A stretch of 64,000 bases of DNA. Source: Podospora anserina. Lineage: Eukaryota. The DNA is taken from assembly GCA_017654855.1 (NCBI GenBank), contig CM030338.1:3844001-3908000 (forward strand), read 5' to 3'. Shown in pieces: positions 6,558-31,059 of this stretch. The notes beneath the pieces were generated by a model, which was not told the origin of the DNA, did not search any database, and was given only the letters and a program-made list of their open reading frames with translations. Each line of letters begins with the position of its first letter. The stretch's first letter is position 1. The position numbers and the translations under genes are program-made.

Positions 6558-6838
6558 CTAGATTCCGGACTTGAATACTTTCTCGAACTAACCGCCCCAA
6601 GACTGAGACGCTAATTAGAAGGTAGATCTGCTAGGTTACCGCCCGGAGCTATGGCGCTTATGGGAGGGCGTAGTGAGGTGGAGTCGTAGGCCCACTAATG
6701 AATTTGGAGGGGGGCAAGGTACCGAGTACTTGGCTACGACCAATCGCTCCGCATTATTTAGATACCTGAAAATAGCGTTCCTGCCCTACCAAATTTGGCG
6801 GCTAGAACAGCAAATTTCATACTTAATCTATAGTTTGG

Positions 6839-11223: not shown

Positions 11224-11637
11224 ATGCATCTTTCCAAGTTCTTGATCACGGCCATCTTTGCGGCCCCGTACGTTGCGGCCCTCGCCGTGCCCGTCCAGGA
11301 CGCCTACAACGGCGACATCGAGGCCCGCTACGCCGAGCCTGAGGCACTCCCCATCGCCGCTGTCGATGTCGACGCCGCCGAGGTGACCGGCATTGACGTT
11401 GACGCCGACGTAACCGACAAGGGCAAGGGCAAGAAGGGCAAGAAGGGCAAGGGAAAGAAGGGTAAGGGCAAGGCTAAGGGCAAGGCTAAGGGCAAGGGCA
11501 AAGCTAAAGGCAAGGGAAAGGCCAAGGGAAAGGGAAAGGCGAAGGGGAAGGGTCCCGCTAAGCCTCCCGCCAAGGGCAAGGGAAAGGCCAAGGGCAAGGG
11601 CAAGGGCCCCAAGGAGGAGGGTGAGGCTGCCGAGTAA
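11224..11637 (+). CDS. Secreted small protein with acidic pro-region and Lys/Gly-rich polycationic repeat
   Basis: Signal peptide MHLSKFLITAIFAAPYVAALA; DIEAR-YAEPEALP; a (KG/KA)n block; TATA-like GGTATATAAC at about 11085. Confidence 0.85.
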   Translation: MHLSKFLITAIFAAPYVAALAVPVQDAYNGDIEARYAEPEALPIAAVDVDAAEVTGIDVDADVTDKGKGKKGKKGKGKKGKGKAKGKAKGKGKAKGKGKAKGKGKAKGKGPAKPPAKGKGKAKGKGKGPKEEGEAAE

Positions 11638-11968
11638 ATAACTCGCACCCACAACTTCGAGTGATCTTCTTTGACGAAGACATGACACACAGAGGATGGG
11701 GTGAATGACTGGCCAGTCAATGGGGTGGTGTCGATTGCTTGTATTTACTTTCTACATTGCTTCCTGAAAGGCTAGTGAATGACGCGGACGACGGTCCGAA
11801 CGCCATGATGTACATTTCCACGCTTTGCGAGCGTCAGACAATCAAGAACTTCTGATGTTGCTGTGAAGTACGCAGTATCAAGATGATGATGTGATTGTTG
11901 TATTATCCAAAACGCATGCAAGTCGTGAAACGGCGTAAACACAGCCCTTGCTTGATAGATTCACTCCA

Positions 11969-13596
11969 TCAGGGATCTGCTTCGTCATCATCCGTTTCAA
12001 CTTCAACCCAGTTCAAACCCTCACAGGGCCTCTGCCAAAGCTCAGAGTTGCCGAGCTCAGCCGGGTATGTCCCGGCTACACCAAGTATGCACTCATCAAG
12101 ACCATGGATGGTCTTGAGATTGGGAAGCTTCTCTTCCTTTTGCGCCAGCAGCTCATCGACATGTGCATCAACTTGAGCAAACTTTCCCTTCTCGTAGCCA
12201 TACAACTTCAAACTCTCCAGATTCGGCGGCAAAAGATCAACAAGTCGATGCTTGAGAGTACGGATCGTGACTTTGTACTTGCATGTGTCATCGTAGCCAA
12301 GTATATTTCCAATTCTCTGTGTGACGTGTTAGTAAGCCTGTCATCCAACATCAACAGCAGAGCTCTGGGCATGATACATACAATGCTCAAGTCTGTCAAC
12401 TTGGTAAAGTCCTTCATGGAGCCAATCGACCCGCCTTCGTAGTCAAACGTGTCCGGCAAATCCACCGCATAGAGAGGCAGGTCTTCCTCCTTCTCCCCAC
12501 TGAACGATCGATCCAAATCGAGATATTTTGCATCCGGCGGAGGAGTGCGACCTCTTCCTCTTCCAGTGTCACTCTGACTACTTCCATATCTGCCATAATA
12601 GTACTCAGGGTATTCATCCTTCTGGTGCTCCAACAAGGCCGGGCGGTGCTTATCGTACTTCGAGGGATCATAGAGTCGAGCGTCCAAATCCAGAACCTGC
12701 AGGCTGTCCTTGTGCTGCAGAAGACACTTGCTCACGGTCTTGGGTTTCACGTCGTATGTATACGCGCCATCGGTGTTCCAAAGCCCGGCATTGGAAAAGG
12801 AAAAGTGAGTGAGAGCCTGGGGGATGCGGATGATGCTGCTGAGAATGGCCCCGGAGATATCAGAGTGGCCAATGGTAATTTTCGAAATGGTAGAAGAAGA
12901 CTTGGGCTGGAAGGACGTATTGTCGGGCTGATAGTCTGAGATAGCCTCGATTTTGACGGTAGAAACTGACGGCAGACGATGAAAGTAGCGAAAGAAGCCA
13001 AGGGATCTGACAGTGTCGTAATTGCACCCATCAATAAGGCAGTGATTAATGGCTTCCACATGGACAATTTCGAGTCTCTGAAGTGTGGGTTCGGTGATTT
13101 CCCCGTAGTTGTTTTGGACGAGGTACTCGTCCAGCAAGGTGCCCAGTATGAGGGTCTCCGGGTTGAAGCGGAGCCGTTTGATGTTGGGACAAAGCGAGAT
13201 AACGAGAATGGCCAGGGCCTCATGGTAGTGAGGAATATCCGGCCATCCCGAGTTCCAACGGATGCGCTTCGCTGGGGGCTCATCATCCTGGGTGTTGACC
13301 TCAGATTTCGCCTTGTCTTTCTTTCTCGGGACCCCTTCCAGGATTTTGGTTTTCATATCGTCACTGACCCCAAGGCTCTCGATGTATTTGACCACCAGTT
13401 CATGGTCCCCATCATCCAGAGCAGGATCTGGCTCGCCGTTCATGAAGTGCCCAAATCTCTGGGGAGGGTCGACGATGAACTCTTCCACCAAAAGGGCTGC
13501 ATCTGGATTTTTGAGCCAATTGAGGACGAGTTTGGAGCATCGAGTCGCATCCTCGTTACGCAGGAGGCATACTCGCTTGTAGGATGGCGATGACAT
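11969..13596 (-). CDS. Fungal leucine-rich/F-box-associated-type hypothetical protein (at least 2 exons)
   Basis: LAILVISLCPNIKRL, LQHKDSLQVLDLD, IGSMKDFTKLTDLSI, last exon MPPNLESLKLYGYEKG are typical of fungal LRR-like proteins. Start codon is uncertain. Confidence 0.6.
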
Positions 13597-13883
13597 GGCT
13601 GTCGTATTCGTCTCGATGATGTGAAGAGAGAGAGTGTTAAGAAGCCTGAGCACCTAGGTACGGAGTTTCGTAGTAAGATTGACCGGAGGTGTTTTATGTC
13701 TCTTTGCAACAACATATTGCCAACCTTCTCCTGAACCTCAACACCAGGCAGCAACTGCTAGCTTGAGCCAACCACACAGTGCTGCCTAGCAACAGTGGGG
13801 GCGGGAACATTCAACAGAGAGGTCACGTGATGGGAAATAGGGGTTTCAGGGGGAACATGCAGTTGTCCCATTGGATGCAGTCG

Positions 13884-15341
13884 TTAAAAAACATCACTGC
13901 TCCAAGTCCAGTTGTCCTCTAACCCTTTGCTGCCTATCGTGGCTCTTCCAGGATCGGACTTGGTCTTGTTCTCATCTGGTTTTGGAGACTCCGGTAATGG
14001 ATACATCCTTCCTTTGGCCCTATGCCCCTCTATTCCGGGGTCCGATATCACGGGGAGTGTTTCTGGTACCGAAAAATGAACATTCAACCTACTTCTCCCT
14101 GCATCTGGGTTCGAAGCTGAGTCGGGCGACATTGGATCAGCCGCTGGCTCTTTTTTCTGTTCTCCTTTCTCCTTGGATCTTTGCGGCGACGTTATCTGGG
14201 CTTCCACCTTGTTGCCCGCACATCCTCTTGAACAATTCCGGCAGCATTCGCATTTCCAACCCCTCTCAGGTGGTGCTGGCACAAGCCTCCACAGCCAATC
14301 CCACCACCTCTCCTCTCTTTTGAACTCCTCGGGCCTTGCATTCCACCTCCGTACTCTACGTTCCTCATCACCACCAATGGCGTAAACATTTCCTTGCGTC
14401 GCGTACCATATTGCTGCAATCATAATCTCCTCCACCACGTCCTCCTCCTCAGACGTCCTCGGGGCGTATACCAACGTCCATCCAACAGGCACTGGTAGTC
14501 GTTTTTCCATTACGCCATGAAACCAGAACCTGAATATCTTTGAGTCGTTTCCTCCCGCAAGAGGATGCCGCTGCCCCCAACCGGCCTGCAAAACAGTGCT
14601 AACATCCTCGGGATGAAGGTTGACATGCAGTGACCCATCAGCTGCGTGAATATGCGCGATCTCTCCCCCCCATTCGTCTCTCGTGTTAACCGTCCCGGCC
14701 GTTCTATCACCGATGTCCCTGAATAGTCCACGAATCCCGGCTTCCAAGAAAGACATCTTGACCCTCAAATCTCGGGATGATCTGGCCTGGAGCTTTTTTA
14801 CCATGTCATTCAGCTTGTAAAACGCGCTGGGTGGCCCTTTCTGGCTGAGCTGCCTTGCAGGTAGCCATCTACTCGTCTTTGGCCTATCTCCCTCTCTTTG
14901 TGGAAGACCAAACAGCCTGCCTCGATAGGGAAGCTCATCCTGCTTGACCTTTGGTGGTTCCAGAATGTTGTTCCATCCTGCCAAGAAGTTCCAGAAGACG
15001 AGCTGTAGCCAGCCCCCAAAGGTTGGCGGGACATCCTCCAAGGTTAAGGACTCGTATTTGTGAAAGGAAGAATAACATGACCAAACAATGCCTGAAAAGA
15101 CGTAGTACCGAAATAGCCACGAGGTTGTGAATATGGAGGTGAACCAGTAGGCCAAGACCATTCCAGCTGCGAATGTGCCGGGGGAAGGCTTGAGCCAAAG
15201 ACCGACAAGAACCGGGACTGAGGCCAGTGAAAAGTCCCATATTACTTCCTCCCAGCTGGTGTAGTGTTGCGGGGCTAGTGTCGCGGTTGCGGCGGTGGTT
15301 ATGCCAAGGACCCAGAGAGAGGGGTGGTTGAAGGTGTACAT
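13884..15341 (-). CDS. DUF5519 (luciferase-like domain) protein with N-terminal TM segments
   Basis: GEIAHIHAADGSLHVNLHPEDVSTVLQAGWGQRHPLAG...LVYAPRTSEE motif. Confidence 0.75.
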   Translation of the reverse strand: MYTFNHPSLWVLGITTAATATLAPQHYTSWEEVIWDFSLASVPVLVGLWLKPSPGTFAAGMVLAYWFTSIFTTSWLFRYYVFSGIVWSCYSSFHKYESLTLEDVPPTFGGWLQLVFWNFLAGWNNILEPPKVKQDELPYRGRLFGLPQREGDRPKTSRWLPARQLSQKGPPSAFYKLNDMVKKLQARSSRDLRVKMSFLEAGIRGLFRDIGDRTAGTVNTRDEWGGEIAHIHAADGSLHVNLHPEDVSTVLQAGWGQRHPLAGGNDSKIFRFWFHGVMEKRLPVPVGWTLVYAPRTSEEEDVVEEIMIAAIWYATQGNVYAIGGDEERRVRRWNARPEEFKREERWWDWLWRLVPAPPERGWKCECCRNCSRGCAGNKVEAQITSPQRSKEKGEQKKEPAADPMSPDSASNPDAGRSRLNVHFSVPETLPVISDPGIEGHRAKGRMYPLPESPKPDENKTKSDPGRATIGSKGLEDNWTWSSDVF

Positions 15342-15638
15342 CTTGCGCCGTCATCTCCGCCGCCAATAACAGGAGAGGCGTGAAGGGTGTCTTCTGTGGC
15401 GACTTGGATGCGATGTTGTGAAGCTCATCAAACAATTGCATGGGGTTTCAAGGTTCAAGCCATGTCTCATAAAGTCATTATGTTCTAGCCATGCGTCGTC
15501 TTTGTTGGCCCAGGTGACAGTTTTCTTTGTTCTCATCTACCCCCACACTTGCTTGGATTCAGCAAGAATCGATTCCCGCATACAGCTTGGCGCGAGATCC
15601 TTTGTTTCCACCAACGGGGATCTCCGCCATTTTCCATA

Positions 15639-16877
15639 CTACAGCTCAAACACAAGGCCAGTCTCAGGACCATAATGACCGTCTGCCAGCGCTTGCCACC
15701 CAGCCTTGTACTTCTCCAGTCCCTTCTCCCACTTGATCTCGATGGCCGGGATGGCCCCGTCACCGGCAAACCGACCCCAGGCAGCATTTTGCGCATTGTA
15801 GTAGGCCTCCGCCGATCCAAGGTTTGCGATGCCCTTCTCCCGGATCAACCCAGCGTGGACCTGGTAGACATTGCTGGCCGGATCCATGGCCTTCCCATAT
15901 AATACCGGGGGCCGAGTAGCCGAGGGGTCAGCTCCTACCAAGAGAACAGTGACATTATCTTCCCCAAACTTCTCGTCGAGAGCGGACGCCCAGGTATCAG
16001 CCGCTTGACCCCGGGCAGCAAAATTGACCAACACAATCTTCTGCCCCTTCTTCGCAATCCGCTCAATATCCTCAACCTGCTCATACAAAAGCACCTCATC
16101 AAACAGCCCCGTGCTCTCGCTAAACCCCTTTGACTTCTCCGACCCAACACCGATAACCTTCTCAGGCTGTTCGCCCTCCGGCCTGCCCTTCCTCAACTCA
16201 TGCGCAAACGACAAGCCAGTTTTCCCAGACGGCGCCAGCAAAATCACCACGGCCCCCTTGATATCCGCCTTTTTGGCATCCCAGCCATCTCCCCCAGCGG
16301 CACCAAACGGATGCGAGGGCTTGAACCCACCCTCCCAGGCGAAAACATGCTGGTTGAGCATCCACCCCGTTTGCCAGAGGGCATAAAACAACACACGCAA
16401 CCCTTTGCTCTCGTTTGACTCGTCGCCAAAGACGTGGTAACGGTTGTAAATCGGGTTGAGCCCCTTTCTCAACCCGTCGTCGGGCAGGACGACGTCGTAG
16501 TCACCCGGGACGTTCCCCTCTATGAGTTGGATCTCCTCAACTCTGGTGCCGATGGGCTGGTAACCGAACAATTCTGTTCCGACGGGAAGGGAGGGGACGG
16601 TGCTCTCTACTACTTCAGAGTAGCCCCATGCTGAGATTCGGCAGTGGGTGTCGGGAGAGACCGTGGCCGGCAGAGGCCAGACGTTCCACCACGCTAGGAG
16701 GGGATTCCCGCCGAGTTTGGCGTAAGTGAAAGTGTTTGTTGTGAGCGAGATCAGACGGGTCTGGATGCGGACTGAGGATGGGGCTGTCAAAGGGGTCGAG
16801 GGCGAGGGGGCGGGGGTGAGTGATTGGGCGGTGAAGTCGGCTTTGGAGATGATCTGGATTGCATGTGCTTCGGACAT
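15639..16877 (-). CDS. DUF2855 family protein
   Basis: ISLTTNTFTYAKLG...WWNVWP...ISAWGYSEVVES...GTELFGYQP...NPIYNRY; intronless 412 aa. Confidence 0.8.
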   Translation of the reverse strand: MSEAHAIQIISKADFTAQSLTPAPSPSTPLTAPSSVRIQTRLISLTTNTFTYAKLGGNPLLAWWNVWPLPATVSPDTHCRISAWGYSEVVESTVPSLPVGTELFGYQPIGTRVEEIQLIEGNVPGDYDVVLPDDGLRKGLNPIYNRYHVFGDESNESKGLRVLFYALWQTGWMLNQHVFAWEGGFKPSHPFGAAGGDGWDAKKADIKGAVVILLAPSGKTGLSFAHELRKGRPEGEQPEKVIGVGSEKSKGFSESTGLFDEVLLYEQVEDIERIAKKGQKIVLVNFAARGQAADTWASALDEKFGEDNVTVLLVGADPSATRPPVLYGKAMDPASNVYQVHAGLIREKGIANLGSAEAYYNAQNAAWGRFAGDGAIPAIEIKWEKGLEKYKAGWQALADGHYGPETGLVFEL

Positions 16878-17819
16878 CTTGGGCTGAATTCGGCTCGGGG
16901 GTTTTTTTTGGTGTGTATTTCCTGAGCTTTTCTTGTGAGTTGATTCGAGTCTGATAAGTCGATGCTTTTTCCTGCTTGGTGATTAAGATCCAGAGAAGAG
17001 CCAAGATTTTGAAGCTGACATGAGTCATTGGTGGGGACGGTCAGTTCCACTGTGGTAACAAGGCCTTTACATCCGCCATGTCCGGAAATTCAGCTGGTTG
17101 ATTACAGATGATACTAAATGGGTGCAAAAGATATTTCGAACCTCCCTGGACTTGCCGAGCTTTTGTTCGATGCATAGAACTGCACATCTTGCTTGCGGAC
17201 GCGCGTGCTTGCACCACCTCTTGGTGTTTTGCATTCAAATGTGCAAAACTCTGGGTTAGGGTTGTCCTCAATTTCCAGTGGTTCGATGCGCTAGACAACT
17301 AGGCACCTTACCATCACTCACCACCGCCTGACTAGCAGCTGACTAGCAGCTGGCCGAGCATTTGACTTTCTGGTGTATAAAATAGATATGAGTCAGCAAC
17401 CTGTAGAATATAAGATGTGATGGTCTTGGCTTTTGACGCTTTCGTTGGGTCTGATGGTTAGGTAGCGAGAGGGCATATTAGTAGGTAGTCGGAAAAATAC
17501 TTAGATAGATAGGTGTCAACTGTTGGTGTTGCTCAAGGGAATCTGACTGCATGATTCCACTGCTCGCCAGATACCTGTACACGCTGTGGACAAGAAAGCT
17601 GGCACTGTGAAAGGACTGAACTATGCCTCGAAGAATAGTTAATAGACTTCGAAAAGTACTTAATATGTCTTAAAATATAGTTAATAGGCCTCAAAGAATG
17701 TTGATAAGGCCTGTTTTCTGTTTGAAAGGGTGTAAGTTGATAGTCTTCATGTATTGTTCTGTCGAGAGAAATCTTTTGCCGTTTTCGGACTCGCTTGCAG
17801 GGTGTGTGGTTAATGAGCG

Positions 17820-18292
17820 TGTTACGCCCCAAGCGTAATACCCCTGTACAGGAACCACTGGGTGGTACCCGAGGTGCTGGGCACCTCAGCCAATCATTGG
17901 GCCAGGATGGAAAGACCCACCAGCCCCCGTGCAACCAATTAGGAGTTGCTCAGTCTGCTCAGTCTGCTCAGTGCGCCAAGACCACTGAGCACACTGAGCA
18001 CACTGAGCACACTAAGCAAGGTACAAAGATACTTCAGAAATATATATAGATAGTTTAATATAAATAGGGGGGAGCGCCGGGCGCTCCCCGTGTCGAGGAA
18101 TCTGATTCCTCATGCAAGCAATTCAAGTTCATTTGTCTACAATCTACTCTCAGTAGCTCTTTGTTAGAACAACCTGTTGTTGACAGTGAACCCGTGTCTG
18201 AGACGCTTGTCACAACCTTCGATCATCCTGTCATATTCACCTCTGGCGTACTGCCTTGCAGTCTGTATCCATTCCTGGTGCAGGTTGTAACA
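17820..18292 (+). mobile_element. Solo LTR (473 bp), copy 1
   Basis: TGTTAC...GTAACA termini; matches the reverse complement of 30587-31059. No target-site duplication seen (flanks GAGCG / GCACC). Confidence 0.85.
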
Positions 18293-19082
18293 GCACCCTG
18301 ACCTTATCTTATCATTCACCTGCCCTGCCCCACCGAGCCTTGCAGCCTTGCACCTTAAATTCCTTGCAGGCCAGGCCAGGCAAAGCCTTCCTTTCCTTTT
18401 TCTCTTCTTTAGCTTAGTATTTCGTCAATTGAGTGTAGCTTTGCAGCATTGTCTCTCGTTTGGCCACTTCGTGACAAGTACCATTAGATCTCTCTTTAAA
18501 AACACTTACTTTCTATACCGTGGAAGACTCCCAGGTAGCTAAGGAGGTCAGGGACCTACTTAAGAACTATACGCCGGCCGGAAAACGGCTTGCGGTAAGG
18601 ACTCTCACTAGTACTATATTTATACTGAGATCTGAGGCATCCATCCATAAAGCTGATGCGGCAAGGCACCAACAAAACGCCCACAAAGTCCAGGACGCAA
18701 AGAAAAGGCGCAAGTTAAATAGAGAAGATTCGAATTCTAAGTTTGTAAGGCTTTGTGACCTGGAAGAGGCTCGTATTGAAGGGAGGGTGGTGGAGGAAAA
18801 AGTGGTGCCCAAGGAGGATATGGAGCAGCCGGAGCCAGCCGAGCCTGTGCGGCGTAGCACACATTATCGGGTTCAAACTCGGCGTAAGAGGGAAGCAGAC
18901 AAAATGTCTGACTCTAACAGTGATTGAGCTACATTTTGGTATAACTTCCATAGAAATTGACCCAATATTGGTCTTGTTGTGGGGAGTATAAGCATTCAGG
19001 GGTAATCTCATTAAGGTTGTGTGGCTGGTGTGGGGGTGGTGGTCCATATTCGTGGGTGGGCCATTTCCTGGTCATCCAACCT
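18293..19082 (+). mobile_element. Right-end remnant of a Tc1/mariner (Fot1/pogo-like) DNA transposon
   Basis: ORF 18520-18927 (...KKRRKLNREDSNSKF...) resembles Fot1-type transposase C-termini. It ends in a 31-bp sequence GTGGGTGGGCCATTTCCTGGTCATCCAACCT(A) that is repeated at 31754. Confidence 0.55.
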
Positions 19083-19815
19083 AGTAATGGAATACCATTA
19101 CTTGACTTGCGCTTATACGCTCCTGAGATATGATGGAGTCGTCTGTTTGGTACATAAAGAACGCCCGGGAGTGACAAGGGTAACCGAGATGCTGGTCGTA
19201 GCTATGCTGTGCCAGTGACGGACTGCGCTATCGCCGTCTTCCAGCTCGAGGTCCTCTACAATGAGGCAGAGGAAACTGAGGTGGTCACGGTCTTATTGTG
19301 ACATGACGCCAACCCCCTATTATTCGTTGATTGGAAAGGTGCCGGCTGAGGATATGTTGTTATGGGCCTTCACTTGCTTCCAGATTTCAACCTTACAGCC
19401 TCTACAGAGGACGGCTAAGCGTACTGACGATAGGAGATTATGGACGGTGTTAGTGGTTGTAGACGCCACTATTGAAGACGGCCGTGGTGCCCTTGCCGAT
19501 GGTTGACGAGATGAGCGCTTTACTGCTGGGGTGATTTTTGTGAAATTGGTTATATATCATATTGTACATAACACTAGCGACAGTAACAAGAGCTTTTCCC
19601 GGTGCTAAAGAATTCTGGTTAATATCTACAGCATGCTTTGCAGCGCCTCGGAAAGAGCGGGATTTGAGCAGATACAGAGGCAATACATCCATTCATGAAG
19701 GTCTAGCAAACAGAATCTGGGTACTTTATCACCGACTGAGGTTAAATCCATCAACCTAACACTGGCAACGAAGGCATTTGATTCTGATCCTTCCCAAGCC
19801 GTGCAGCCTGAATAT

Positions 19816-20987
19816 TCAAGGGATGTATGGGATGACATCATCCGTATCCCAAGGAGCAATATAGTCGGCAGGAAGTTCCTCATCAGGTGGCACCTGATGT
19901 GCCTCAGCCCATACACGAACTGCCTCATAATTTTTGCATTTGTGTCGGGTGTTGAAATCGGGGAATGCCTGAGGTTGCTTCGTATTTGGCTGATGAGTCC
20001 ATACTTGCCCAAGCACCCCATTATCCACATTGCACATGAGCACTTGTCGAACGATATCTAAGCAATGTGCTAATAGACACACAATACGTCTTAGTACTCT
20101 GAAAATATAGGATGAGGTGCACTTGTACAGGCCAACTTACTAAGGTGACTTTTAAAGATATTTTCTTCGAGGTCAAACGCGTCATCGCCTATAGCCTTAT
20201 AATAATTGTAGTTGAAGTAAAGGGACTTGCGAACCAAATTCTAAATCCCAAGTGCTTTGGTTAGATGCTGGTAACAAGTATCCAAACATAACGTACCAGG
20301 CAATGTAAGTGGTGTAGGCCTTCCACATTCACGAAGAAACCACCTCCATATTTTTTTGCTCGTTGAACGTGGTGCTTTGTGAGCCCGCTCGCAATCCCTT
20401 CATTCTCTGGGATGATGGAGGCTCTATCTATTTCCCTGTTAGCCTTGCGTAACCCATCTCCCATTAACAATAATAACTAACACTCAATACCCAAAGCCTC
20501 CCATGCCGCGTCCACTCTGGGCGACCCTTGGAGACGATATACCACTTCTTTCATAAATGAACCATTAAAGGACGTGATTGAGTACGCGTGATCAACTTCG
20601 TTAAGCACGGGCGCTAAGTTTAGTTCATTGCCATCAGTATACTTATCCAAGAGTCAAAAATGCATAACACGCAGCAGCAGCAGTTGAACTTCTTAATTTA
20701 TAGATGAAAGTTGACTTACAGTACTGCGATGTGCGCATCGCACATTGCCGGTCCAGATCCATCTCTATTCCTTGCTGGATTTGTTGGCTGACAATAGTGG
20801 CTATTGTTATGCCAAGAATCAAGCCTAGCAGAAAGAAAAGCGACTTGATGAGTATTGATGGCAACAATGTTTGTCCTGGGGAACGACGTTGTCGGACCTT
20901 GGGGAGTAGCTCTGAACCATGATCCGAGTCGGAGTCTTCGCTTGTCCCTGCAAAGGAAATCTTGTCTTCGGACATACCTGAAGACAT
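19816..20987 (-). CDS. DUF3328 / UstYa-family oxidase A (multi-exon)
   Basis: N-terminal TM helix (LFFLLGLILGITIATIV); YRLQGSPRVDAAWEALG; VEGLHHLHCL; HCLDIVRQVLMCNVD; FPDFNTRHKCKNY. Confidence 0.9.
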
Positions 20988-21516
20988 CGTGGTGGCGACG
21001 AGGGCAATGATGCTCGTGATTGGGTATATGGGGGCCAGATAGGGGGAACGTTGGGAGGGGTTAATTGAGGGAGAAAGAAAGCAGCTGGAAGGGAAGGGTA
21101 AGGTACTTGTAATATATGCTGAAGATCTTAGCCGGAACTTGGCAGCTTTTAGCCCCTCATTGTACTTCTTGATCTACCAAGTAGGGAACCAAAAGTAACG
21201 TAGATATCTACAGGCAGGAAGTCAATAGATTATTTTTGTGTAGATTGATTAGGTACGCAGTTTTCTTCAGTGTTGTTTGCATCTAAGCACGAGAGACAGG
21301 ACTCAATTCTGCATTCAGTGAATGCGAATTACTTTATGAACCACCTCGCTAGCTAGGTAGGTATTTCTGAGAGACATGTCTGAAGCTTTGAAAAGGAATG
21401 GATAGCTGTGCGCAAATACCGCAAATGTTACTCGAGTAGACACATGAACACCAAAAAATGAAAGTGCAACACGGGTAACTCATTGGCTCCTCAGACTTCC
21501 ATGCGCTACATGTATC

Positions 21517-21968
21517 TCACATGCCAAAGAAGCGCTTGACCCCAACCACGCTCGTGTGTAGCCAAGAAGCTGAACTATCCATGGCCATAAGGTGTGCGCG
21601 GTATCCTTTCTCAAGGGAGTCAAGGTCGAGGTATCCGGGCCCCGAGGGAAGCTGATTGAACGTCAGAAACAATGAGACTCAGGAGCCAAAACCAATATAG
21701 CATACCCAGTGATTCGGGTGCTCCCATTCGAACTTCTTTTTGCCATAGGAATAGGAAGATACCCAGGCCGACCTAGTGGCCGAAGCGTCGACGGTCGGGG
21801 GAAGACCTGGCTCTCGCGTGTCGATGTCGAGTTTCTGGCGGCAGAACGCTAGTAAATAGACTTTTCTTCAAAGACTGGATGCCGAATCATTACCTCAGAA
21901 CTCATAGACGGAGCTATAGCCATGGAGGCTACGCCGGTGAAGGCTGTGGCAAAGATGAAGCCCCTCAT
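21517..21968 (-). CDS. 112-aa secreted peptide (3 exons), candidate RiPP precursor; absent from the ORF track
   Basis: Exons 21968-21894, 21834-21706 and 21651-21517; phase-0 introns of 59 nt (GTAATG..CAG) and 54 nt (GTATGC..CTGAC..CAG); start context CAACA-ATG. Protein: MRGFIFATAFTGVASMAIAPSMSSEKLDIDTREPGLPPTVDASATRSAWVSSYSYGKKKFEWEHPNHWLPSGPGYLDLDSLEKGYRAHLMAMDSSASWLHTSVVGVKRFFGM*. Confidence 0.75.
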
Positions 21969-22725
21969 TGTTGGGCAGCGTCGGTAGCAGTGCACAGTGA
22001 GAAGCAAGCAAGCACTTAGAAACAAAGAGAGGGAACCCTGTGTCCCAAAATGGGCGTATATGTAATGGGAAAGCGAGTGTGAAAGTTGAACGGCAACTTA
22101 ACTGCCGACCGCAGTATCCCAGAATGCAATACTATGTATGCAGGTAATGATGATGCGTGGGATAGGTAATATCAAGATGGTTTCGCTACTTTGACTTAGC
22201 TACTTACTCATATCGCTAGAGCTAGGCAGTGACGATGTCAAACCCCCACCTGGTCAAGTAATATAAAGAGCAATAGTCTTGGCCCCTGCAATTCCTCTTA
22301 TCATGCTGACCGCCTAAGGTCCGGTTCTTCGGGTATACCAGATGCTCGGGTTTGCCAAGTCTAACTTCCCTTTCCACGTACTGCCCCCCACCCCCTCTGG
22401 TCTCGGAACCTCCCATCTACTCCCCGTGCCGCCCTCCTTATGCTGCCCCTACTATAACTACCATGCTGATGCCTAAAGCCCGGTTATTCGGGTGTACCAG
22501 ATGCTCGGGTTTGCCAAGTCCTCCCCTCCCTTTCCCCCTCCTCCATTTGCCCCTCCTCGTCCGGATCCTCGTCTCGCCCTTCCGTTTGCCACCCCTCCCA
22601 TCCCATCCCGCCGCTTCCCCCAGCCAAGGCCCAGCCAGTACATCTCTACTCCCAATCCACGGATGCAAAGGGGCAAGAAATTTCCATGCGCCACGAGACA
22701 GTGAGAGATACCTCAAGGAGAAATC

Positions 22726-23800
22726 ATGTTCCAAAGCAGACAATATGTTCGCCTCAGAAACATAGGCCCAGACAGCACGTCAGGCGACACGGCAACCCGA
22801 AATGGCTCTGCAGCTCATCATCATAAACCTTTGCCACATTCTCTTCGCCGACCAGCCACAGCCACCATAGTATTTCTCGTCTCGATAGTTTTGAACTTCT
22901 TTTTGTTGGGAAAAGTCTTGCTCTCAAACACTGCACGGTACCGGATATTGACTTACTGTAAGTGCTGCCTCACCTTACATGATTCAGCTATGGCTGATTA
23001 ATGAATGGAATAGCTCCGGCTTTACCTGCCATTAGCCATGAACGGGTTGTTTTCTCCAGCGGTTTTGGTATTGAACAATCACCATTCCAGGGGCCACCTT
23101 CGGAGGAGAACAACAAGCTCTGGGCTGGTCTCTATGACTGTAAGTTGCGTGCTGAAAACGCTTTGCTTCCTGATGTTATGCTGAGAACTGGCTCGTTTAA
23201 AGTCGGGATCTCGAGGATTAGCGCAGACGAAGCCCGGCCAATGGACAACAAAACGCTCCCGATTCCAGGTCGAGAGGGTGGATATGTTGTCCAACTGAGT
23301 GTGTTCCATCAACTTCATTGTTTGGTAAGATTGTCCCGGCCTACATTATTTTTGCATGGTCAACCAAAGAGTAACACAGAGCGTCATTCTCAGAATCTGA
23401 TCCGGAAAGGCTTATATGGTGCTGTCGATATGACAAACGTGGACGAGCTGCTGGGCATAGAACATCTCGATCACTGTCTTGATATGCTCCGACAGAGCGT
23501 AATGGTACAGTCTCCTCACCACTTCCTATCCTGTCTTGAACAAAACATGTGATACTCAGCAGGCTAACAAGAGCTATTGCTAACCAAATATAGTGCAGCA
23601 GTGACATAACGCCAACAACATTTGCCCGTCAAACTTCCTCCTCTCCCATGAAGATTGTCGCCGAGGTCGTGCACACTTGTCGGAATTTTGCCAAGGTTCA
23701 GCAATGGGCATGGAATAGACGGCTGACAACGGAACTGGACAAAAATACGCTAGTCACCAACGATCCTCTAGGTTGGGGAACTTACACATATTCTCCTTGA
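22726..23800 (+). CDS. DUF3328 / UstYa-family oxidase B (multi-exon)
   Basis: TM helix IVFLVSIVLNFFLLG; FQGPPSEENNKLW; LSVFHQLHCL; EHLDHCLDMLRQSVM-CSSDIT; HTCRNFAKVQQWA. Confidence 0.9.
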
Positions 23801-24037
23801 ACGGGGTTTGATTGCGAGCTTTGCTGTCTGTTGGTAGAAACAACACACGCGTTTCTAGTTCAAGTATCATATGTGCCAAGTTTTATTCCATTGCCTAGGT
23901 ATTTCAATATCCATTGTCTCATCTATATTTCTCATTGACTCCCCTTGATAGCCACCAGGCTGGAGTGAGGTAAATTTATTTGTCTGTGAACATGCCATTG
24001 GCTAAACTCGAAAGTGTTTGCTTGAACTCCTGAAACC

Positions 24038-24949
24038 TTAGTCTTCTGCATACTTACCAAGTTCAGAATCATGCTTCCATACCCACTCCGATATTTGTGA
24101 GAAATTTCTGCACATGTGGCTTGTCGAGACACGAGCTTCAGGTTGCTGATCGCCAAGATCAGTGTAGAACAAGAGATCGGTGCCACTGTTGCACATCAGC
24201 ACCTGCCGTAGCAAGTCAATACAGTGATCTTGTGGTATTAGCGTAATGTACCTAACATTTGGATTGAGTTGCAGTGATTTTTGTTAACTTACCGACATGC
24301 TTCCACACAATCTCGGGGGGGTTTTGGAAAGTATCAACGTGTTTATAATAGTCTCTCCAAATGTACTTTCGAGTGATGTCCAAACAGTGGAGATGATGGA
24401 AAACCTCAACAGTGGCATAATAGTGATTGTTCACGCCCTTGGTGAGCTTTGTTGTCGGATCAAAATCCTGCAGAGTTTTGTTGTCGACAAGAATCATGGG
24501 ATCTGTTTTGGATATATCGTTGGTCAACTTCGGTAAATAAAAAACACCGTGAGATACATACGATCAACTAATTTGTTCCAAGCTTCATCGAGTTCTTTGC
24601 GCGGCTCCCCTTTATAAACGGAGGCAGCGAAAAGCTCAGCATCGAACTTCACGGGGCTGACCGTCGCTAATTGTTCCAAAGGGTCTTTGGCCTTGATTAG
24701 CATGGGTACATGTGTCGAAGTACGTAGAGCAGAAGCGGATTACTGACAACTCCCTATGAGCCTCGTTTGACGATCGCCATCGCACGACCCCAAGAACTGC
24801 GGCGAACGGAGGCCTGGCTGACGTAAAGCCCAGATATTGAGGAAGATTGCAGTGGAGAAAAGAAACACATGTAGATACACAATGCTGCTCCTCGATCGCT
24901 TAGATGAGGGCATCCCCTTATCAAACTCTTGTAGATGACGGTCGTCCAT
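24038..24949 (-). CDS. DUF3328 / UstYa-family oxidase C (multi-exon)
   Basis: TM helix YLHVFLFSTAIFLNIWAL; YKGEPRKELDEAW; VEVFHHLHCLD; HVDHCIDLLRQVLMCNSG; HMCRNFSQISEWV. Confidence 0.9.
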
Positions 24950-25891
24950 TCTCACCAATATCAAAATGATGTTGTCGATACTCGATACTGGACAGAAGCG
25001 AAGGTGGGATGGGACAATCCAAACATGTGCTGGGATCCGTCCTTGACTACCTCGGTGGGTACCTACGAGATTATGCACCATCATCTACCGACGTTGTCAA
25101 CCACACGGCCTACACCCGCGGCGTGATAATATGAGCCCGCATTTTGCAATGCGTTGCCACCTGCGGGGTGTATTAACCGGTCATCTACCCTGCCGCTCGT
25201 CTGTGGGGGAACAGCACAACACCCCGAATCTCGTTCTTTTCTTGGCACCATGACCGCAACTCAGATGGTAATTACTCCATCAACAGGGACCGTCGAGGCC
25301 TGGAGAGCGATCTTGGTAGGCGCCAGACTCGTTAGATCGTGATATAACATAGCGAAAAAGGAGATGTAATGTATTTATTTGAAGGCGACGTTGTAGCCGG
25401 TGTATGAGGCCAAATTCGGACGGCGGGGCGCTCTCTAAATTAGGATCGGACCAGCGCTGGTAATGGGACAATTTCCTAATCCAATAAATCCTGGCAATCA
25501 ATTCAATTCTCCTAAAAAATTGGGGTTGATTGGATTATTGCATATGTACAGTACGAATGAGTCACCGGGGTGAGATATGGCCTAAGAGCGCCAATCTCTG
25601 TTTTCAGTAAATACGAGCACTGACAATTGTTGAGCTTTTCCGGTGTTTTCTGTGGTACGAGGCGGCCACCAGCCAACTCAAAAAAGCCCACTTCAGCCAG
25701 GTTTAGTCATCAAACAGTACGAATGAGTGGTTTTGATCTTGTACATACAGTGCACAAATACTGTGTGCACGTATCTGACCCTTGCAACGCGCCGACTCAA
25801 TAAGCCAGTGCCAGTGCTCCAACTCCAAACATCGAACGAAAAGCAACAAAACGAAAAACACGCAATATTCTCAACGCAGCAATTCGCAAGC

Positions 25892-27370
25892 ATGACGGCC
25901 CCTTCTCACAACCACGCCAACTACCAGGCGCGCCTTGACTACATTCGGGGACTTTTGGGAGATCACTTTGGTCTTTCTAACGAGGTAAGCACTTCACAAG
26001 GCTGCAATCGAACTTGACAATATGGAGAGTCCAAGGTGGAGTCCAGTCTCCACATACCTATCTAATAATTGGTGAAATCGCAGAACATAGCGGAGACCAA
26101 GATCACACCGATTCAATACGAAGCCGACTTCCCCTTCAAATACAACAACTTCGTCTACCGCCTCGAGGTTCCCGTCGACATATCCGATGACGGTGTTGAG
26201 CTGCCGGGATGCGTCCCCATTCCTGCAGGTGCTAGGGCGTTTATAATGCGCCTCAGCAACGCTGATGCTGAGGGCATGTACCAAGAAACCCGCGTGCAGA
26301 ATGAAGTCGCTATCCTTACCCTCGCCTCGGCGGCTCTTCGCCACATCAAGCCCAACATCGTCCCCCGCGTCTTCGGCTGGGGTGGTGCTAGTCAAGGGCG
26401 TTTGGGCTGGATCTTGCAGGACTTGATGCCCGGAGTACCGCTTGATAACGTGTTTAGCCCAACCGCGTCCCTGGAACAAAAAACCGCGGTTCTGAGGCAG
26501 ATGGCGGCTATTCTGAAGGCACTACAAGACTATCCGCTTCCCAAGAGCATTCAGGGCTGGGGAGGGTTGACTTTTGACAGCAACGGTGCCATTGTCAGCG
26601 CGCCTATGCCTAGCGTCGGTGCCGGGCCATGGTCTTCCCTCGAAAATTCCTACCGAGGCCGACTCAAAGCCGCACTCGACAAGGCAGATAAAAACCCGTA
26701 TCTAAAGGGATGGCGGCCGAACGACATCAGAGACCGTGTCGATGATTTCATCGAGCGTGGCTTATCAGCACAATTCTCTGACCTGACATCTAGCCATGAC
26801 AGGGCTATTATACACGCAGATTTCAGTAAGTCTTTTGTTCAATGTAACCTCCCTAGCGCTAACCTGAAGGTAAAAGCCTCGGACAATCTCCTCCACGACC
26901 CTGCGACAGGCCTAGTCACAGCGCTCCTCGACTACGACTTCAGCACTATTCTACACCCTGCCTACGAGTTCTTCCGCTCTTTTAGTCCCAACGGCGGTCG
27001 ATTTACTGGCTGGATCGCCGACTCAGACCCAGAGGGACAAGAGTTGTTAGAACTTCGGAGAGCCAAGCTGACCGGAAAGTTTCCTTCACCTCTTCCAACA
27101 CCTAGAGAGACTCCCAATGGTCCAGGGGTTGATTGGGAACTTGCGCAGGCGTGGGAGAATGAGCTGCAGAGAATAAATGTCAAGCGGCCTAGCACCATTC
27201 AGGGCATCGACAAACTTGCTGATGTAGACGAGCTCTTGGGATCCCTGACACCCTGGAGATTGATCAATACTGACTTTCTGAGGATGAATACGGATGAGGG
27301 CCAGAGAATGGCTTTGAGACGTATGGGTGAAGAGCAGCTTGTAGCCGTGTTGGATCATCTTGGGTTCTAG
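25892..27370 (+). CDS. Aminoglycoside phosphotransferase (APH)/kinase-like protein
   Basis: YNNFVYRL, RVQNEVAIL, VPRVFGW, WILQDLMPGVPL, IIHADF, intron, DNLLHD...TALLDYDF. Confidence 0.85.
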
Positions 27371-27645
27371 AAATAATTGATAGTACGTTACGGATCGTCT
27401 TAAGCGAGCCGGCGGAATTGACATGAATATTTGCTCCCCAGCCCAGAAACCTATCACAGTACAAGTACTCCCCCCCGCATAGACGGAATGCCAAGAGGAT
27501 GTCGGCTGAAACCACATTGCTCCCTCGTGGACTGGTGTTCATTCCTCCCCTCCATTCATATACAACACCCTGCCCGCCCGTAGTTGCCCGCGCCCGTGAC
27601 ATCCGTTCCTTTCTTCATTTACATCGTTTTCCAAAAGCTTCCAAA

Positions 27646-28697
27646 ATGTCATACGCGTCCTCACAAGCGCCCCATACTCCAAAGCTCTCGGGGACACACG
27701 GGCCAACTGAACAATCCGAGGAGGTCAAACCCCACGACGTCACCACCATCTTGAATTACTTCAAAGATAATGACGATGACTCAGCCGCCATACAGAGGAC
27801 GGTCGATAGCGGAGCAGAAACATACGCCAGTAAATTCGAGCCGCAAAAAAGCGTCATCCATGACATCCGTGGTAACGAGTCTCAATACACTTTAGATGTT
27901 CAGGGATTCCAAATCGTTGGCCATGATAGCAAGGAAAAGTGTTTTCTCGATGACGAGCATGTTCGAAACATCTACTACCCCGAAACAGAAGAACTACTGA
28001 AGAAAGTGTAAGTCAACATTCTATATAGAGAAGTTTAGATAGATATATACTTATAGATGTCGGGTAAATCAGCACTGGGGCTTCCAAAGTCTTCATCTTC
28101 AACCACACCATCCGCGGCGGTCCTCTCAGCAAGGCCCACCGCCACCGCGGTCCTGTTCACCGAGTCCACATCGACGTATCATATGTCGGGGCCCACAGGC
28201 GCGTCTCTCATTATTTCCGTGATAACGAAGCCAGGCTTGCTGCTCTGCTCAAAGGACGGTACCAAATCATCAATGTCTGGCGGCCTATCAAGAATATCTT
28301 GAAAGACCCTCTTTGTGTCGCAGACGCTGGCTCTGTTCCAGAATCAGACTTGGTTCCAATCAAATTGCTTTTTCCCCCAGATGTTGTGACGGCAATGACG
28401 ACGAGTGAACCGATTCATTCCGTGATGGGGGCAGCAGCAAATCCGAAGCACAAGGTAGATAGTACGGATGGAGAGACATTTTCTGTGAGAGCGAATCCGG
28501 GGCACATGTGGTATTATCTGTATAGACAGGCGACCGACGAAGTGTTGTTGATCAAGTGTTTTGACTCCAAGACGGACGGGAGCGTAGCTCGGAGGGCGCC
28601 GCATACGGCCTTTGTGAACAAGGAGCATGAGGATGAGCCTGAGAGGGAGAGTATTGAATTGAGAACGCTCGTGTTCTATTCGGATGACACTGAGTGA
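27646..28697 (+). CDS. AsaB/CmcJ/GA4-desaturase-like putative Fe(II)/2-oxoglutarate hydroxylase-desaturase
   Basis: IHDIRG..YTLDVQGF, YYPETEELLK, FNHTIR, VHRVHID, RYQIINVWRPI, PLCVAD, WYYL...KCFDS, PHTAF, RESIELR. Confidence 0.85.
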
Positions 28698-30586: not shown

Positions 30587-31059
30587 TGTTACAACCTGCA
30601 CCAGGAATGGATACAGACTGCAAGGCAGTACGCCAGAGGTGAATATGACAGGATGATCGAAGGTTGTGACAAGCGTCTCAGACACGGGTTCACTGTCAAC
30701 AACAGGTTGTTCTAACAAAGAGCTACTGAGAGTAGATTGTAGACAAATGAACTTGAATTGCTTGCATGAGGAATCAGATTCCTCGACACGGGGAGCGCCC
30801 GGCGCTCCCCCCTATTTATATTAAACTATCTATATATATTTCTGAAGTATCTTTGTACCTTGCTTAGTGTGCTCAGTGTGCTCAGTGTGCTCAGTGGTCT
30901 TGGCGCACTGAGCAGACTGAGCAGACTGAGCAACTCCTAATTGGTTGCACGGGGGCTGGTGGGTCTTTCCATCCTGGCCCAATGATTGGCTGAGGTGCCC
31001 AGCACCTCGGGTACCACCCAGTGGTTCCTGTACAGGGGTATTACGCTTGGGGCGTAACA
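30587..31059 (-). mobile_element. Solo LTR (473 bp), copy 2, inverted relative to copy 1
   Basis: Reverse complement of 17820-18292; the ORF-track translations over both copies are identical. Flanks CTTTA / TCACG, no TSD. Confidence 0.85.

What the first reader, a model, noticed from the sequence alone, without database searches (positions are those of the whole stretch)
21517..21968. Hidden three-exon secreted peptide gene between DUF3328 genes: candidate non-repetitive RiPP precursor
The ORF track misses this gene because each exon is under 60 codons. Hand splicing at two canonical phase-0 introns (59 and 54 nt) gives an uninterrupted 112-aa protein. It has a signal-peptide-like N-terminus and an acidic/Pro spacer, then R-SAWVSSYSYG-KKK-FEWEHPNHWLPSGPGY... 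and a C-terminal KR-FFGM. Established: dikaritin precursors have a signal peptide and usually Tyr-containing cores released at Kex2 dibasic sites, normally as tandem repeats. Here there are no repeats, but a Trp/Tyr-rich segment (SAWVSSYSYG) sits between R and KKK, and a second aromatic segment follows. Inference: this is a single-core or heterogeneous-core precursor that repeat-based genome mining would miss.
Basis: partly seen in the sequence, partly recalled or inferred. Interest (0 to 1): 0.85.

Follow-up and report, generated by a model that had tools for sequence, protein, structure and literature searches.

The report
Peptide-precursor-like gene among UstYa oxidases
A real, spliced and transcribed 112-codon gene for a small secreted protein sits among three copper-oxidase (UstYa) genes of a Podospora fungus and is probably the raw material for an undescribed modified peptide, though no product has been seen.

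Summary
The three exons (21968-21894, 21834-21706, 21651-21517, minus strand) join across GT..AG introns of 59 and 54 nt into a 112-aa ORF. Assembled transcripts from 3 of 3 RNA-like runs carry exactly these two junctions, and the DNA control does not. The model is letter-identical to a public "hypothetical protein" of Podospora pseudopauciseta, so the gene is not unannotated.

It lies among three UstYa/DUF3328 genes, each with a membrane helix and two HxxHC motifs. It founds an unnamed Sordariomycete family with three parts: a signal peptide, 1-3 copies of a unit TVDxxxTRxxWVxxY, and one conserved ~45-aa C-terminal domain. Close relatives carry the unit twice. Small gene and A-type UstYa are adjacent in 5 of 5 named genomes where the neighbour could be read.

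My best reading (0.6) is the substrate of the neighbouring oxidases, a dikaritin-like RiPP precursor of atypical build.
- The family is repetitive.
- KKK is not conserved, and no KR/RR site flanks the unit.
- The "second aromatic segment" is the start of a conserved follower-like domain.

No product, cleavage site or modification is known. I rate it a new variant of a known kind, interest about 0.6.

The parts
21894..21968 (-). Exon 1 of the small gene: ATG at 21968, 25 codons, signal-peptide-like N-terminus
   Evidence: translation; joint 21834>21894 in X1, X9, X10; hydrophobic core, Kyte-Doolittle 1.88 over 11 residues
21835..21893 (-). Intron 1, 59 nt, GT..AG, phase 0
   Evidence: skipped in 3 of 3 RNA-like runs, present in the DNA run X15
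21706..21834 (-). Exon 2, 43 codons: variable spacer, then the single unit TVDxxxTRxxWVSSYSY, a KKK linker, and the start of the C-terminal domain (..HW)
21652..21705 (-). Intron 2, 54 nt, GT..CTGAC..AG, phase 0. Several public models read through it (HW followed by VY..), which places an intron at the same spot in relatives
   Evidence: (P0005, P0016, P0020)
21517..21651 (-). Exon 3, 44 codons plus stop: conserved C-terminal domain (LPxGPxYLDxDxLExGYxAHLM...W...KR-FFGM)
21302..22163 (-). Extent of the assembled transcript (749 nt after splicing), giving about 195 nt of 5' UTR and about 215 nt of 3' UTR
   Evidence: table 8, X1 record 1
19816..20987 (-). UstYa gene A: 294 aa, 5 exons, membrane helix, HHLHC and HLTHC motifs. 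It lies directly downstream of the small gene on the same strand
   Evidence: PF11807; 4 joints; model; 100% identical to P0022, QC763_700840
22726..23800 (+). UstYa gene B: 265 aa, 5 exons, membrane helix, HQLHC and HLDHC motifs. It is transcribed divergently from the small gene
   Evidence: (4 joints in X1, X9, X10)
24038..25084 (-). UstYa gene C: 286 aa by the longest ATG (a later ATG is possible), 4 exons, membrane helix, HHLHC and HVDHC motifs
   Evidence: (3 joints in X9, X10)
22312..22520 (.). Two copies of a 50-nt direct repeat (92% identical, 159 nt apart) in the divergent promoter shared by the small gene and gene B. Possible shared control element; this is inference only
25892..27370 (+). 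APH-like (phosphotransferase-fold) gene: 442 aa, 2 introns, no signal peptide. Possible cluster member
   Evidence: (PF01636). A 46%-identical ORF lies 350 bp from a degenerate small-gene copy in metagenome locus L002
27646..28697 (+). CmcJ/NvfI-family oxidoreductase gene, two exons, start approximate. Possible tailoring enzyme
   Evidence: NF041278, 160.5 bits on the second exon; X10 contig from 27560

Best explanation
The gene encodes the substrate (precursor peptide) of the three neighbouring UstYa/DUF3328 oxidases. It would be a dikaritin-like, ribosomally made and post-translationally modified peptide of unusual build.

Shown:
- The mRNA is spliced as predicted and is found in the same RNA assemblies as genes A, B and C.
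- The product has a signal-peptide-like N-terminus, no cysteine, and no confident predicted fold.
- It belongs to a conserved family made of a signal peptide, 1-3 copies of a unit TVDxxxTRxxWV(S/T)(S/K)Y, and exactly one conserved ~45-residue C-terminal domain.

Inferred:
- The pre-protein enters the ER.
- There the membrane-anchored, lumen-facing UstYa enzymes oxidise the Trp/Tyr-bearing unit. A 2025 paper (abstract read) showed this enzyme family to be binuclear-copper, O2-dependent. The likely chemistry is side-chain ether or C-C macrocycles or hydroxylations, as in ustiloxin, asperipin and phomopsin.
- The single-copy C-terminal domain, with one predicted helix, serves as a follower or docking element.
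- An unidentified protease, not a classical KR-directed Kex2 cut, releases the product.
- The CmcJ/NvfI oxygenase and the APH-like protein in the same repeat-bracketed 12-kb block may tailor the product or protect the cell.
For: 1. The gene is real: junctions are seen in 3 of 3 RNA-like runs and 0 of 1 DNA run, and the model is identical to a public one.
2. Context: three PF11807 genes lie within 3.2 kb, each with a membrane helix and two HxxHC motifs. Among the stop-to-stop ORFs of 90 aa or more that I sent to Pfam (146 of 216 listed, plus 4 shorter ones; the longer of overlapping frames, chosen by eye), none hit an NRPS or PKS family. No other repeat-peptide gene turns up in 15-32 kb.
3. Linkage: small gene and A-type UstYa are neighbours in 5 of 5 named genomes where this could be read. 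These are the window (identical to P. pseudopauciseta, tags 700835/700840), P. bellae-mahoneyi (same tags), P. australis and Triangularia setosa (consecutive accessions on contigs of equal recorded length; inference), and Fusarium proliferatum, a different order, where annotators fused the two into one 450-aa model in the same order and strand as here.
4. Copy number: only the unit varies in number, and it has expanded independently. There are 2 identical units in P. australis and T. setosa, 2 in Nemania abortiva, 3 in N. serpens, 2 in Anthostomella, 3 in the P. anserina paralogue of PMC9801653, and 4-5 in the L001 pseudogene. The C-terminal domain is always single. This is the behaviour of multi-core precursors.
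5. Conservation is in two blocks, the unit at 0.57-0.66 and the C-domain at 0.54, separated by free-running linkers at 0.19-0.23.
6. The mature part has no Cys in any of the 8 models (P0010's single Cys lies in the signal peptide). The mean pLDDT is 46.9 and the Atlas model scores 0.41. It is peptide-like rather than a folded effector.
7. Both metagenome copies seen without UstYa neighbours carry in-frame stops, which fits joint decay.
Against: - No product, mass, cross-link or cleavage has been seen; the reading is entirely contextual.
- The window's protein has one unit, not repeats.
- No KR/RR site flanks the unit in 8 of 8 full-length models. The only conserved KR lies 5-9 residues from the C-terminus.
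- The strongly conserved C-terminal domain is not a feature of known dikaritin precursors and could mean the protein has a function of its own.
- Four of the five linked genomes are one family (Podosporaceae), so independent support for linkage amounts to two lineages.
- For 8 further named members the neighbours could not be read: Xylaria, Gaeumannomyces, two Nemania, Anthostomella, Annulohypoxylon, and the P. pseudocomata and P. anserina paralogues.
- L001 and L002 show no UstYa in the DNA held. For L001 that is 9.6 kb upstream but only about 300 nt downstream, which is the side where gene A would lie.
- DUF3328 enzymes also serve non-ribosomal and polyketide pathways (PMC12048977, passages read).
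- The APH-like and CmcJ-like proteins lack signal peptides, so a role on a lumenal peptide is doubtful.
Confidence: 0.6

Rival explanations
1. It is a classical dikaritin precursor exactly. Kex2 cuts at R and KKK and releases a single 10-residue core, SAWVSSYSYG, and a second core follows.
For: There is a signal-peptide-like N-terminus, a Tyr/Trp-rich segment and UstYa neighbours. The P. anserina paralogue in PMC9801653 has KK after each unit. P0016 has GKKD.
Against: KKK matches about 1 of 8 other sequences, and the linker is the least conserved stretch at 0.19. The Xylaria and Fusarium members have no basic residue there. The residue pair before the segment is T-R, not dibasic. No KR/RR flanks the unit in 8 of 8 models. 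TVDxxxTR, which this model treats as a throw-away spacer, is the best-conserved stretch at 0.66. The 'second core' is a single-copy domain conserved across four orders.
Confidence: 0.08
2. It is a small secreted protein with its own function, such as a signalling peptide, a cell-surface protein or an interaction factor. It merely lies beside the UstYa genes and is not their substrate.
For: The C-terminal domain is conserved across Sordariales, Xylariales, Hypocreales and Magnaporthales. A conserved KR lies near the C-terminus, as in pro-protein processing. Family copies occur without UstYa in the DNA held for L001 and L002.
Against: Order and strand relative to A-type UstYa are kept between Podospora and Fusarium. 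The small gene shares a divergent promoter region with gene B and occurs in the same RNA assemblies. The unlinked copies are pseudogenes. Copy-number change is confined to the Trp/Tyr unit.
Confidence: 0.2
3. It is an accessory partner of the UstYa enzymes, for example a lumenal scaffold, a copper-handling helper or a chaperone. The true substrate is encoded elsewhere.
For: The C-domain has conserved His, Trp and Tyr residues (HW..GYxAH). DUF3328 enzymes need copper and electron input (PMC12435403, abstract). The lichen survey states that many UstYa clusters have no recognisable precursor (PMC12048977, passages).
Against: An accessory protein gives no reason for repeated independent multiplication of the TVD..WV..Y unit. 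The first His of GYHAH is Arg in the window's own protein. No other candidate precursor, NRPS or PKS is among the ORFs I screened across the 64 kb.
Confidence: 0.1
4. It is not a functional gene: a chance ORF within a spliced non-coding transcript.
For: The short exons are missed by ORF scans, and the model has low predicted structure.
Against: Fifteen family hits were found with exon 3 alone, down to E 1.4e-11. Members occur in four orders with the reading frame and intron place kept. The public model is identical.
Confidence: 0.02

Closest known systems
Dikaritin precursors (UstA of ustiloxin, AprA of asperipin-2a, PhomA of phomopsin, VicA of victorin). Features taken from passages of PMC7329392, PMC9233826 and PMC12048977.
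   Same: ER signal peptide, a Tyr-bearing unit, gene placed beside several DUF3328/UstYa genes with double HxxHC motifs, and a unit copy number that differs between relatives.
   Different: There are 1-3 units rather than many. No KR/RR Kex2 site lies after each unit. A ~45-residue single-copy C-terminal domain is as conserved as the unit. No tyrosinase or methyltransferase family was hit in the ORFs I screened; the nearest transporter (MFS) lies about 15 kb away.
GigA, precursor of the epichloecyclins (PMC10540207; abstract and passages read).
   Same: A small secreted repeat protein with no Pfam domain, in a compact cluster with a DUF3328 cyclase. It has few (four) imperfect 27-residue repeats whose number varies by strain, each a core plus a 'follower' stretch whose processing is unknown.
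   Different: GigA repeats carry LxKR kexin sites and the cluster holds its own kexin and a SET methyltransferase. There is no sequence likeness, since no Pfam or Atlas link was found. GigA has no conserved C-terminal domain like the one here.
'Predicted CDS 3' of Podospora anserina (chromosome 1, 165 aa, 3 exons) in Table 3 of PMC9801653 (section 10 read).
   Same: Same family: signal peptide, three TVDxxSTRxQ(W/C)VSS(Y/H) units, the same C-terminal domain and a three-exon structure. It was found only through RNA-seq re-annotation.
   Different: It is a paralogue at another locus (its P. pseudocomata counterpart is P0013), not this gene. The paper assigns no function beyond 'signal peptide, transmembrane domain' and does not mention UstYa or RiPPs. 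I could not read its neighbours.
Plant BURP-domain (burpitide) precursors (PMC12186524, abstract from the search listings; the rest recalled).
   Same: N-terminal core repeats rich in Trp/Tyr, followed by one conserved C-terminal domain. Copper-dependent side-chain cross-linking, and a recognition sequence that guides the cyclase.
   Different: There is no BURP domain (0 Pfam families at E up to 1 for 6 of 8 members, and only sub-threshold noise for 2). The C-domain here is about 45 residues, too small to be the enzyme. The copper enzymes are separate UstYa genes.

Membership tests
Dikaritin / Kex2-processed repeat precursor (KEP type) | N-terminal ER signal peptide | tested here: met
   Heuristic test only, as no SignalP was available. 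The N-terminus is M-R/K followed by a 15-17-residue hydrophobic run and A-S-M-A-I-A-P-S, conserved in 9 of 9 N-terminally complete models. InterPro called a signal peptide on the P. anserina paralogue (PMC9801653 Table 3).
Dikaritin / Kex2-processed repeat precursor (KEP type) | Tandemly repeated core sequences in the precursor | tested here: not met
   The window's protein has 1 unit and no tandem repeat in the gene. At family level the feature is partly met: 5 of 15 models that include the N-terminal part have 2-3 units.
Dikaritin / Kex2-processed repeat precursor (KEP type) | Dibasic KR/RR Kex2 site bounding each core | tested here: not met
   In 8 of 8 full-length models the only conserved KR lies 5-9 residues from the C-terminus. 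One model has one extra KR. The window's KKK is not conserved.
Dikaritin / Kex2-processed repeat precursor (KEP type) | Tyr (or another aromatic residue) in the core | tested here: met
   W and Y of WVxxY are kept in 14 of 15 models that include the unit.
Dikaritin biosynthetic cluster | DUF3328/UstYa genes with two HxxHC motifs next to the precursor gene | tested here: met
   PF11807 hits of 46.6-80.3 bits on exons of three genes, against a cut-off of 25. Each model has two HxxHC motifs and a membrane helix. The nearest gene is 530 nt away.
Dikaritin biosynthetic cluster | Tyrosinase, methyltransferase and peptidase or transporter genes (original five-gene definition as quoted in PMC12048977) | tested here: not met
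   No such Pfam family was found between 17.8 and 31 kb. An MFS gene lies only at 36.5-37.7 kb. Later definitions drop this requirement.
Dikaritin (as a compound class) | A side-chain macrocyclised peptide product derived from the core | not testable with these tools
   Needs mass spectrometry or NMR of cultures or of a heterologous host.
BURP-domain fused precursors (burpitides) | C-terminal BURP domain with CH motifs | tested here: not met
   No BURP hit was found. The mature protein has no Cys.

The most novel reading that the evidence does not exclude
This would be the first fungal RiPP family in which a conserved, single-copy C-terminal follower domain, rather than Kex2-delimited repeats, presents one to a few 15-residue Trp/Tyr units to a set of three copper-dependent UstYa oxidases. 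The product could be a large multiply cross-linked peptide that includes the TVDxxxTR residues, or even the whole ~90-residue chain. If so, many 'orphan' UstYa clusters may have low-copy precursors of this kind that repeat-based and KR-based mining cannot see.
Probability: 0.3. Interest if true: 0.8.

Novelty: new variant of a known kind. Interest (0 to 1): 0.6.

Why it matters
UstYa/DUF3328 genes are very common in ascomycetes. Current mining finds their peptide substrates only when these are highly repetitive, KR-delimited proteins. The lichen survey read here says outright that many such clusters have no identifiable precursor and may hide single-core ones (PMC12048977).

This locus offers a concrete, transcribed, conserved candidate of that missing kind. 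It comes with a family-level signature, the unit plus the C-terminal domain, that can be searched for. It sits in the Podospora anserina species complex, where gene deletion and crosses are routine, so the question can be tested directly. If the C-terminal domain proves to be a docking element, it would be the first recognition module described for this enzyme family.

Tried and rejected
- **Whole-genome search of the window's own genome:** none is held.
- **Protein-protein docking of the small protein with UstYa A (complex prediction):** never ran. There is no result of any kind.
- **AlphaFold2 of the small protein** (P0001 with 17-row alignment A1): mean pLDDT 46.9, with one helix at 109-123. 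This is too poor for a fold search, so none was run.
- **AlphaFold2 of UstYa A** (10-row alignment A3): mean pLDDT 44.3, with only the membrane helix confident. Unusable.
- **ESM Atlas:** no feature hit, and all structure rows had TM under 0.5.
- **Pfam on 8 family members:** nothing above noise.
- **PDB sequence searches:** 0 hits for the APH-like protein and for the UstYa profile.
- **RNA holder listing:** no RNA holder is listed as such. The RNA nature of X1, X9 and X10 is the tool's guess, which I back with splice and poly(A) evidence.
- **Metagenome scan:** A2 gave 4 loci. L003 and L004 match only 19 residues and no family protein hit them at E 1e-3 or below, so I dropped them. L001 and L002 are pseudogene-like copies.
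- **Two of the 17 hits** (P0017, P0019) are unrelated repeat proteins, judged by eye, and were dropped.
- **Literature searches:** motif strings found only the P. anserina re-annotation paper. Searches on DUF3328, UstYa and dikaritin(s) found no description of this family as a precursor. One search was wasted on an author-name prefix. Subscription papers and bioRxiv supplements were not visible, and the KEP tables of PMC7329392 (supplement) were not opened.
- **Earlier notes of this scan:** nothing relevant was found (one search failed).

Full report
**1. The observation**

On the minus strand an ATG at 21968 opens a 25-codon exon that ends at 21894. An intron of 59 nt (GTAATG..CAG) follows, then a 43-codon exon (21834-21706), a 54-nt intron (GTATGC..CTGAC..CAG), and a 44-codon exon that ends with a stop at 21517. 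Spliced, the reading frame is open for 112 codons. Unspliced, it meets stops in both introns. My first script had exon 2 one base short and one search corrects it.

**2. Transcript evidence**

- A search of public runs with 21380-22080 listed 14 runs (13 studies) holding 0.74-0.77 of the sampled words. Six further runs (2 studies) held all of them.
- I laid four of these on 18000-28000: three of the partial holders from three studies (X1, X9, X10) and one full holder (X15) as a DNA control.
- All three partial holders have one contig each that joins 21651 to 21706 and 21834 to 21894. X15 crosses the region in a single 6.6-kb contig without joints.
- The tool only guesses that X1, X9 and X10 are RNA. 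I accept this for three reasons. All 15 joints listed across the 10 kb have GT..AG on the strand of the gene they fall in. None of them is in X15. One contig ends in a poly(A) loose end at 27440.
- The X1 contig runs from 21302 to 22163. I see no ATG upstream of 21968 within it.
- Contig depth cannot rank expression, so I claim only that the spliced mRNA exists and that it occurs in the same assemblies as the neighbours' mRNAs.

**3. Public annotation**

- The spliced product is letter-identical to P0033, a 112-aa "hypothetical protein QC763_700835" of Podospora pseudopauciseta.
- My RNA-based model of the downstream UstYa gene is 100% identical over 294 aa to QC763_700840 (P0022).
- The window therefore comes from that species or something indistinguishable from it at these loci. 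The gene is hidden from a naive ORF scan, but it is not unannotated.
- In the cluster listing, P. anserina S mat+ and P. comata have the UstYa orthologue (PODANS_7_840) but no entry for the small gene. This fits the gene being missed in the older annotations. It is not proof.

**4. Surroundings**

- *UstYa genes.* Pfam finds UstYa (PF11807) on exons of three genes. The RNA joints give full models: A (19816-20987, minus, 294 aa), B (22726-23800, plus, 265 aa) and C (24038-25084, minus, 286 aa). Each has one strongly hydrophobic 19-residue stretch and two HxxHC motifs. The three are only 25-34% identical to each other.
- *Arrangement.* The small gene lies 530 nt upstream of A on the same strand. 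It is divergent from B across a region of roughly 560 nt that holds a 50-nt direct repeat.
- *Further genes.* Beyond C lie an APH-fold gene (25892-27370) and a CmcJ/NvfI-family oxidoreductase (about 27646-28697).
- *Bracketing repeat.* The whole block sits between two perfectly complementary 473-nt copies of a dispersed repeat (17820-18292 and 30587-31059; about 8-fold depth in X15).
- *Screen for other pathways.* I sent 146 of the 216 stop-to-stop ORFs of 90 aa or more listed, plus 4 shorter ones, to Pfam. I took the longer of overlapping frames, chosen by eye. None hit an NRPS, PKS, tyrosinase or methyltransferase family. No other repeat-peptide gene appears in 15-32 kb.

**5. The family**

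*Searches.*
- Exon 2 against the 5.8-billion-protein set found two longer proteins among 5 candidates.
- P0001 as query found one more among 438 candidates.
- Exon 3 against 1.8 billion representatives gave 17 hits at E of 1e-3 or below. Fifteen are family and two (P0017, P0019) are unrelated repeat proteins, which I dropped after reading them.

*Membership.* Named members come from:
- Sordariales: Podospora and Triangularia.
- Xylariales: Xylaria telfairii, Nemania serpens, N. abortiva, Anthostomella pinea and Annulohypoxylon sp.
- Magnaporthales: Gaeumannomyces tritici.
- Hypocreales: Fusarium proliferatum.

All are labelled hypothetical. Four of the ten looked up have no name. Seven models of 49-102 aa are exon-3-only gene calls.

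*Architecture.* The alignment shows:
- a conserved signal-peptide-like start;
- a variable spacer;
- one to three copies of TVDxxxTRxxWV(S/T)(S/K)Y;
- a variable linker;
- one C-terminal domain, HWLPxGPxYLDxDxLExGYxAHLM...W...KR plus 4-9 residues.

*Unit counts.* Of 15 models that include the N-terminal part, 14 have at least one strict unit, 5 have two or three, and one (Annulohypoxylon) has only decayed units. The orthologues in P. australis and T. setosa differ from the window's protein essentially by an exact tandem duplication of a 31-residue stretch containing the unit. A P. anserina paralogue printed in Table 3 of PMC9801653 has three units, each followed by PPKK. That paper lists it as a new RNA-seq-derived CDS with a signal peptide and no function (section 10 read).

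*Conservation.* Measured as identity of eight other sequences to the window's protein, with the near-identical P0001 left out:

| Segment | Mean identity |
|---|---|
| Signal peptide | 0.44 |
| Spacer | 0.23 |
| TVDxxxTR | 0.66 |
| SAWVSSYSY | 0.60 |
| GKKKFE linker | 0.19 |
| C-terminal domain | 0.54 |

*No known family or fold.* No Pfam family matches and there is no Atlas relative. The mature part has no cysteine. Predicted structure is poor: mean pLDDT 46.9 with one helix, and 0.41 in the Atlas model.

**6. Linkage to UstYa**

- The Fusarium proliferatum entry P0002 is a 450-aa model. Its first ~90 residues are the small protein and its remainder is an A-type UstYa (37% identical to A). 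The two genes are therefore adjacent there, in the same order and on the same strand as here.
- Locus tags 700835/700840 pair them in P. pseudopauciseta and P. bellae-mahoneyi.
- Consecutive accessions on contigs of equal recorded length (10,200 and 14,429 nt) pair them in P. australis and T. setosa. This last step is inference.
- That makes 5 of 5 genomes where I could read the neighbour, but only two independent lineages.
- For eight other named members I had no access to context.
- Two metagenome loci hold family copies without UstYa in the DNA held.
- L001 has 4-5 units and two in-frame stops. It sits about 300 nt from the contig end on the side where A would lie.
- L002 has a stop in the C-domain and no recognisable unit. 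It lies 350 nt upstream of an APH-like ORF that is 46% identical to the window's. That recurrence is the only hint that the APH-like gene belongs to the system.

**7. Mechanism**

- *From papers.* Dikaritins are made from secreted repeat proteins cut by Kex2 and cyclised through Tyr side chains by UstYa/UstYb-type DUF3328 proteins (passages of PMC7329392, PMC9233826 and PMC12048977). DUF3328 proteins are membrane-associated, homodimeric, binuclear-copper, O2-dependent enzymes built on the HxxHC..HxxHC motif (PMC12435403, abstract only). They also act in non-ribosomal pathways.
- *My inference.* The small protein enters the ER. There the three oxidases act on the Trp/Tyr unit. The C-terminal domain helps recognition, and an unknown protease releases the product.
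- *Strongest argument for substrate.* Across lineages the only part that changes in number is the unit, repeatedly and independently, while the C-domain stays single.
- *Strongest arguments against.* There is no product. There are no KR/RR sites around the unit (8 of 8 models). And the C-domain, unusually well conserved for a precursor, could carry a function of its own.

**8. Verdict**

- The gene is real and the junctions are as predicted.
- The RiPP-precursor reading is the best available (0.6), but it is contextual.
- In the literature I could search the family is not described as a precursor. The one paper that prints a member gives no function.
- I rate it a new variant of a known kind, with moderate-to-high interest. 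It gives a searchable template for low-copy precursors of orphan UstYa clusters in a genetically tractable fungus.

Noticed in passing
17820-18292 and 30587-31059: Two perfectly complementary 473-nt copies of a dispersed repeat (about 8-fold depth in DNA run X15) bracket the 12.3-kb block. That block holds the three UstYa genes, the small gene, the APH-like gene and the CmcJ/NvfI gene. Each copy contains short 9-nt tandem arrays. This could allow inversion or mark a recently moved block.
   Followed up: partly
25892-27370 (+); L002:4536-5831: An APH-fold (phosphotransferase) gene of 442 aa with two introns and a poly(A) end near 27440. A 46%-identical ORF lies 350 nt from a degenerate copy of the small gene in an unrelated metagenome contig that has no UstYa genes. 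This suggests a conserved association of unknown meaning.
   Followed up: partly
about 27646-28697 (+): A two-exon CmcJ/NvfI-family oxidoreductase gene (NF041278, 160.5 bits on exon 2) inside the same repeat-bracketed block. It is not detected by Pfam.
   Followed up: partly
22312-22361 and 22471-22520: A 50-nt direct repeat (92% identical, 159 nt apart) in the divergent promoter region between the small gene and UstYa gene B.
   Followed up: no
L001:9641-10195: A metagenome copy of the family with 4-5 units and two in-frame stops, the highest unit count seen. It looks like a pseudogene.
   Followed up: partly
184-1740 (-): An ORF combining a HeLo (prion-inhibition and propagation) domain with a Ras/Roc GTPase domain. 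This is an unusual cell-death-type architecture.
   Followed up: no
2735-16982: A run of enzyme genes: FAD_binding_4 (2735-3655), HODM_asu-like haem-dependent N-demethylase (6842-7912), luciferase-domain protein (13887-15350) and DUF2855 (15642-16982). It may be a separate metabolic cluster.
   Followed up: no
42576-53946: Kynurenine-pathway-like grouping: an FAD monooxygenase (42576-43337), kynureninase (48689-49894), indoleamine 2,3-dioxygenase (51098-52592) and an NmrA-like protein (53125-53946).
   Followed up: no
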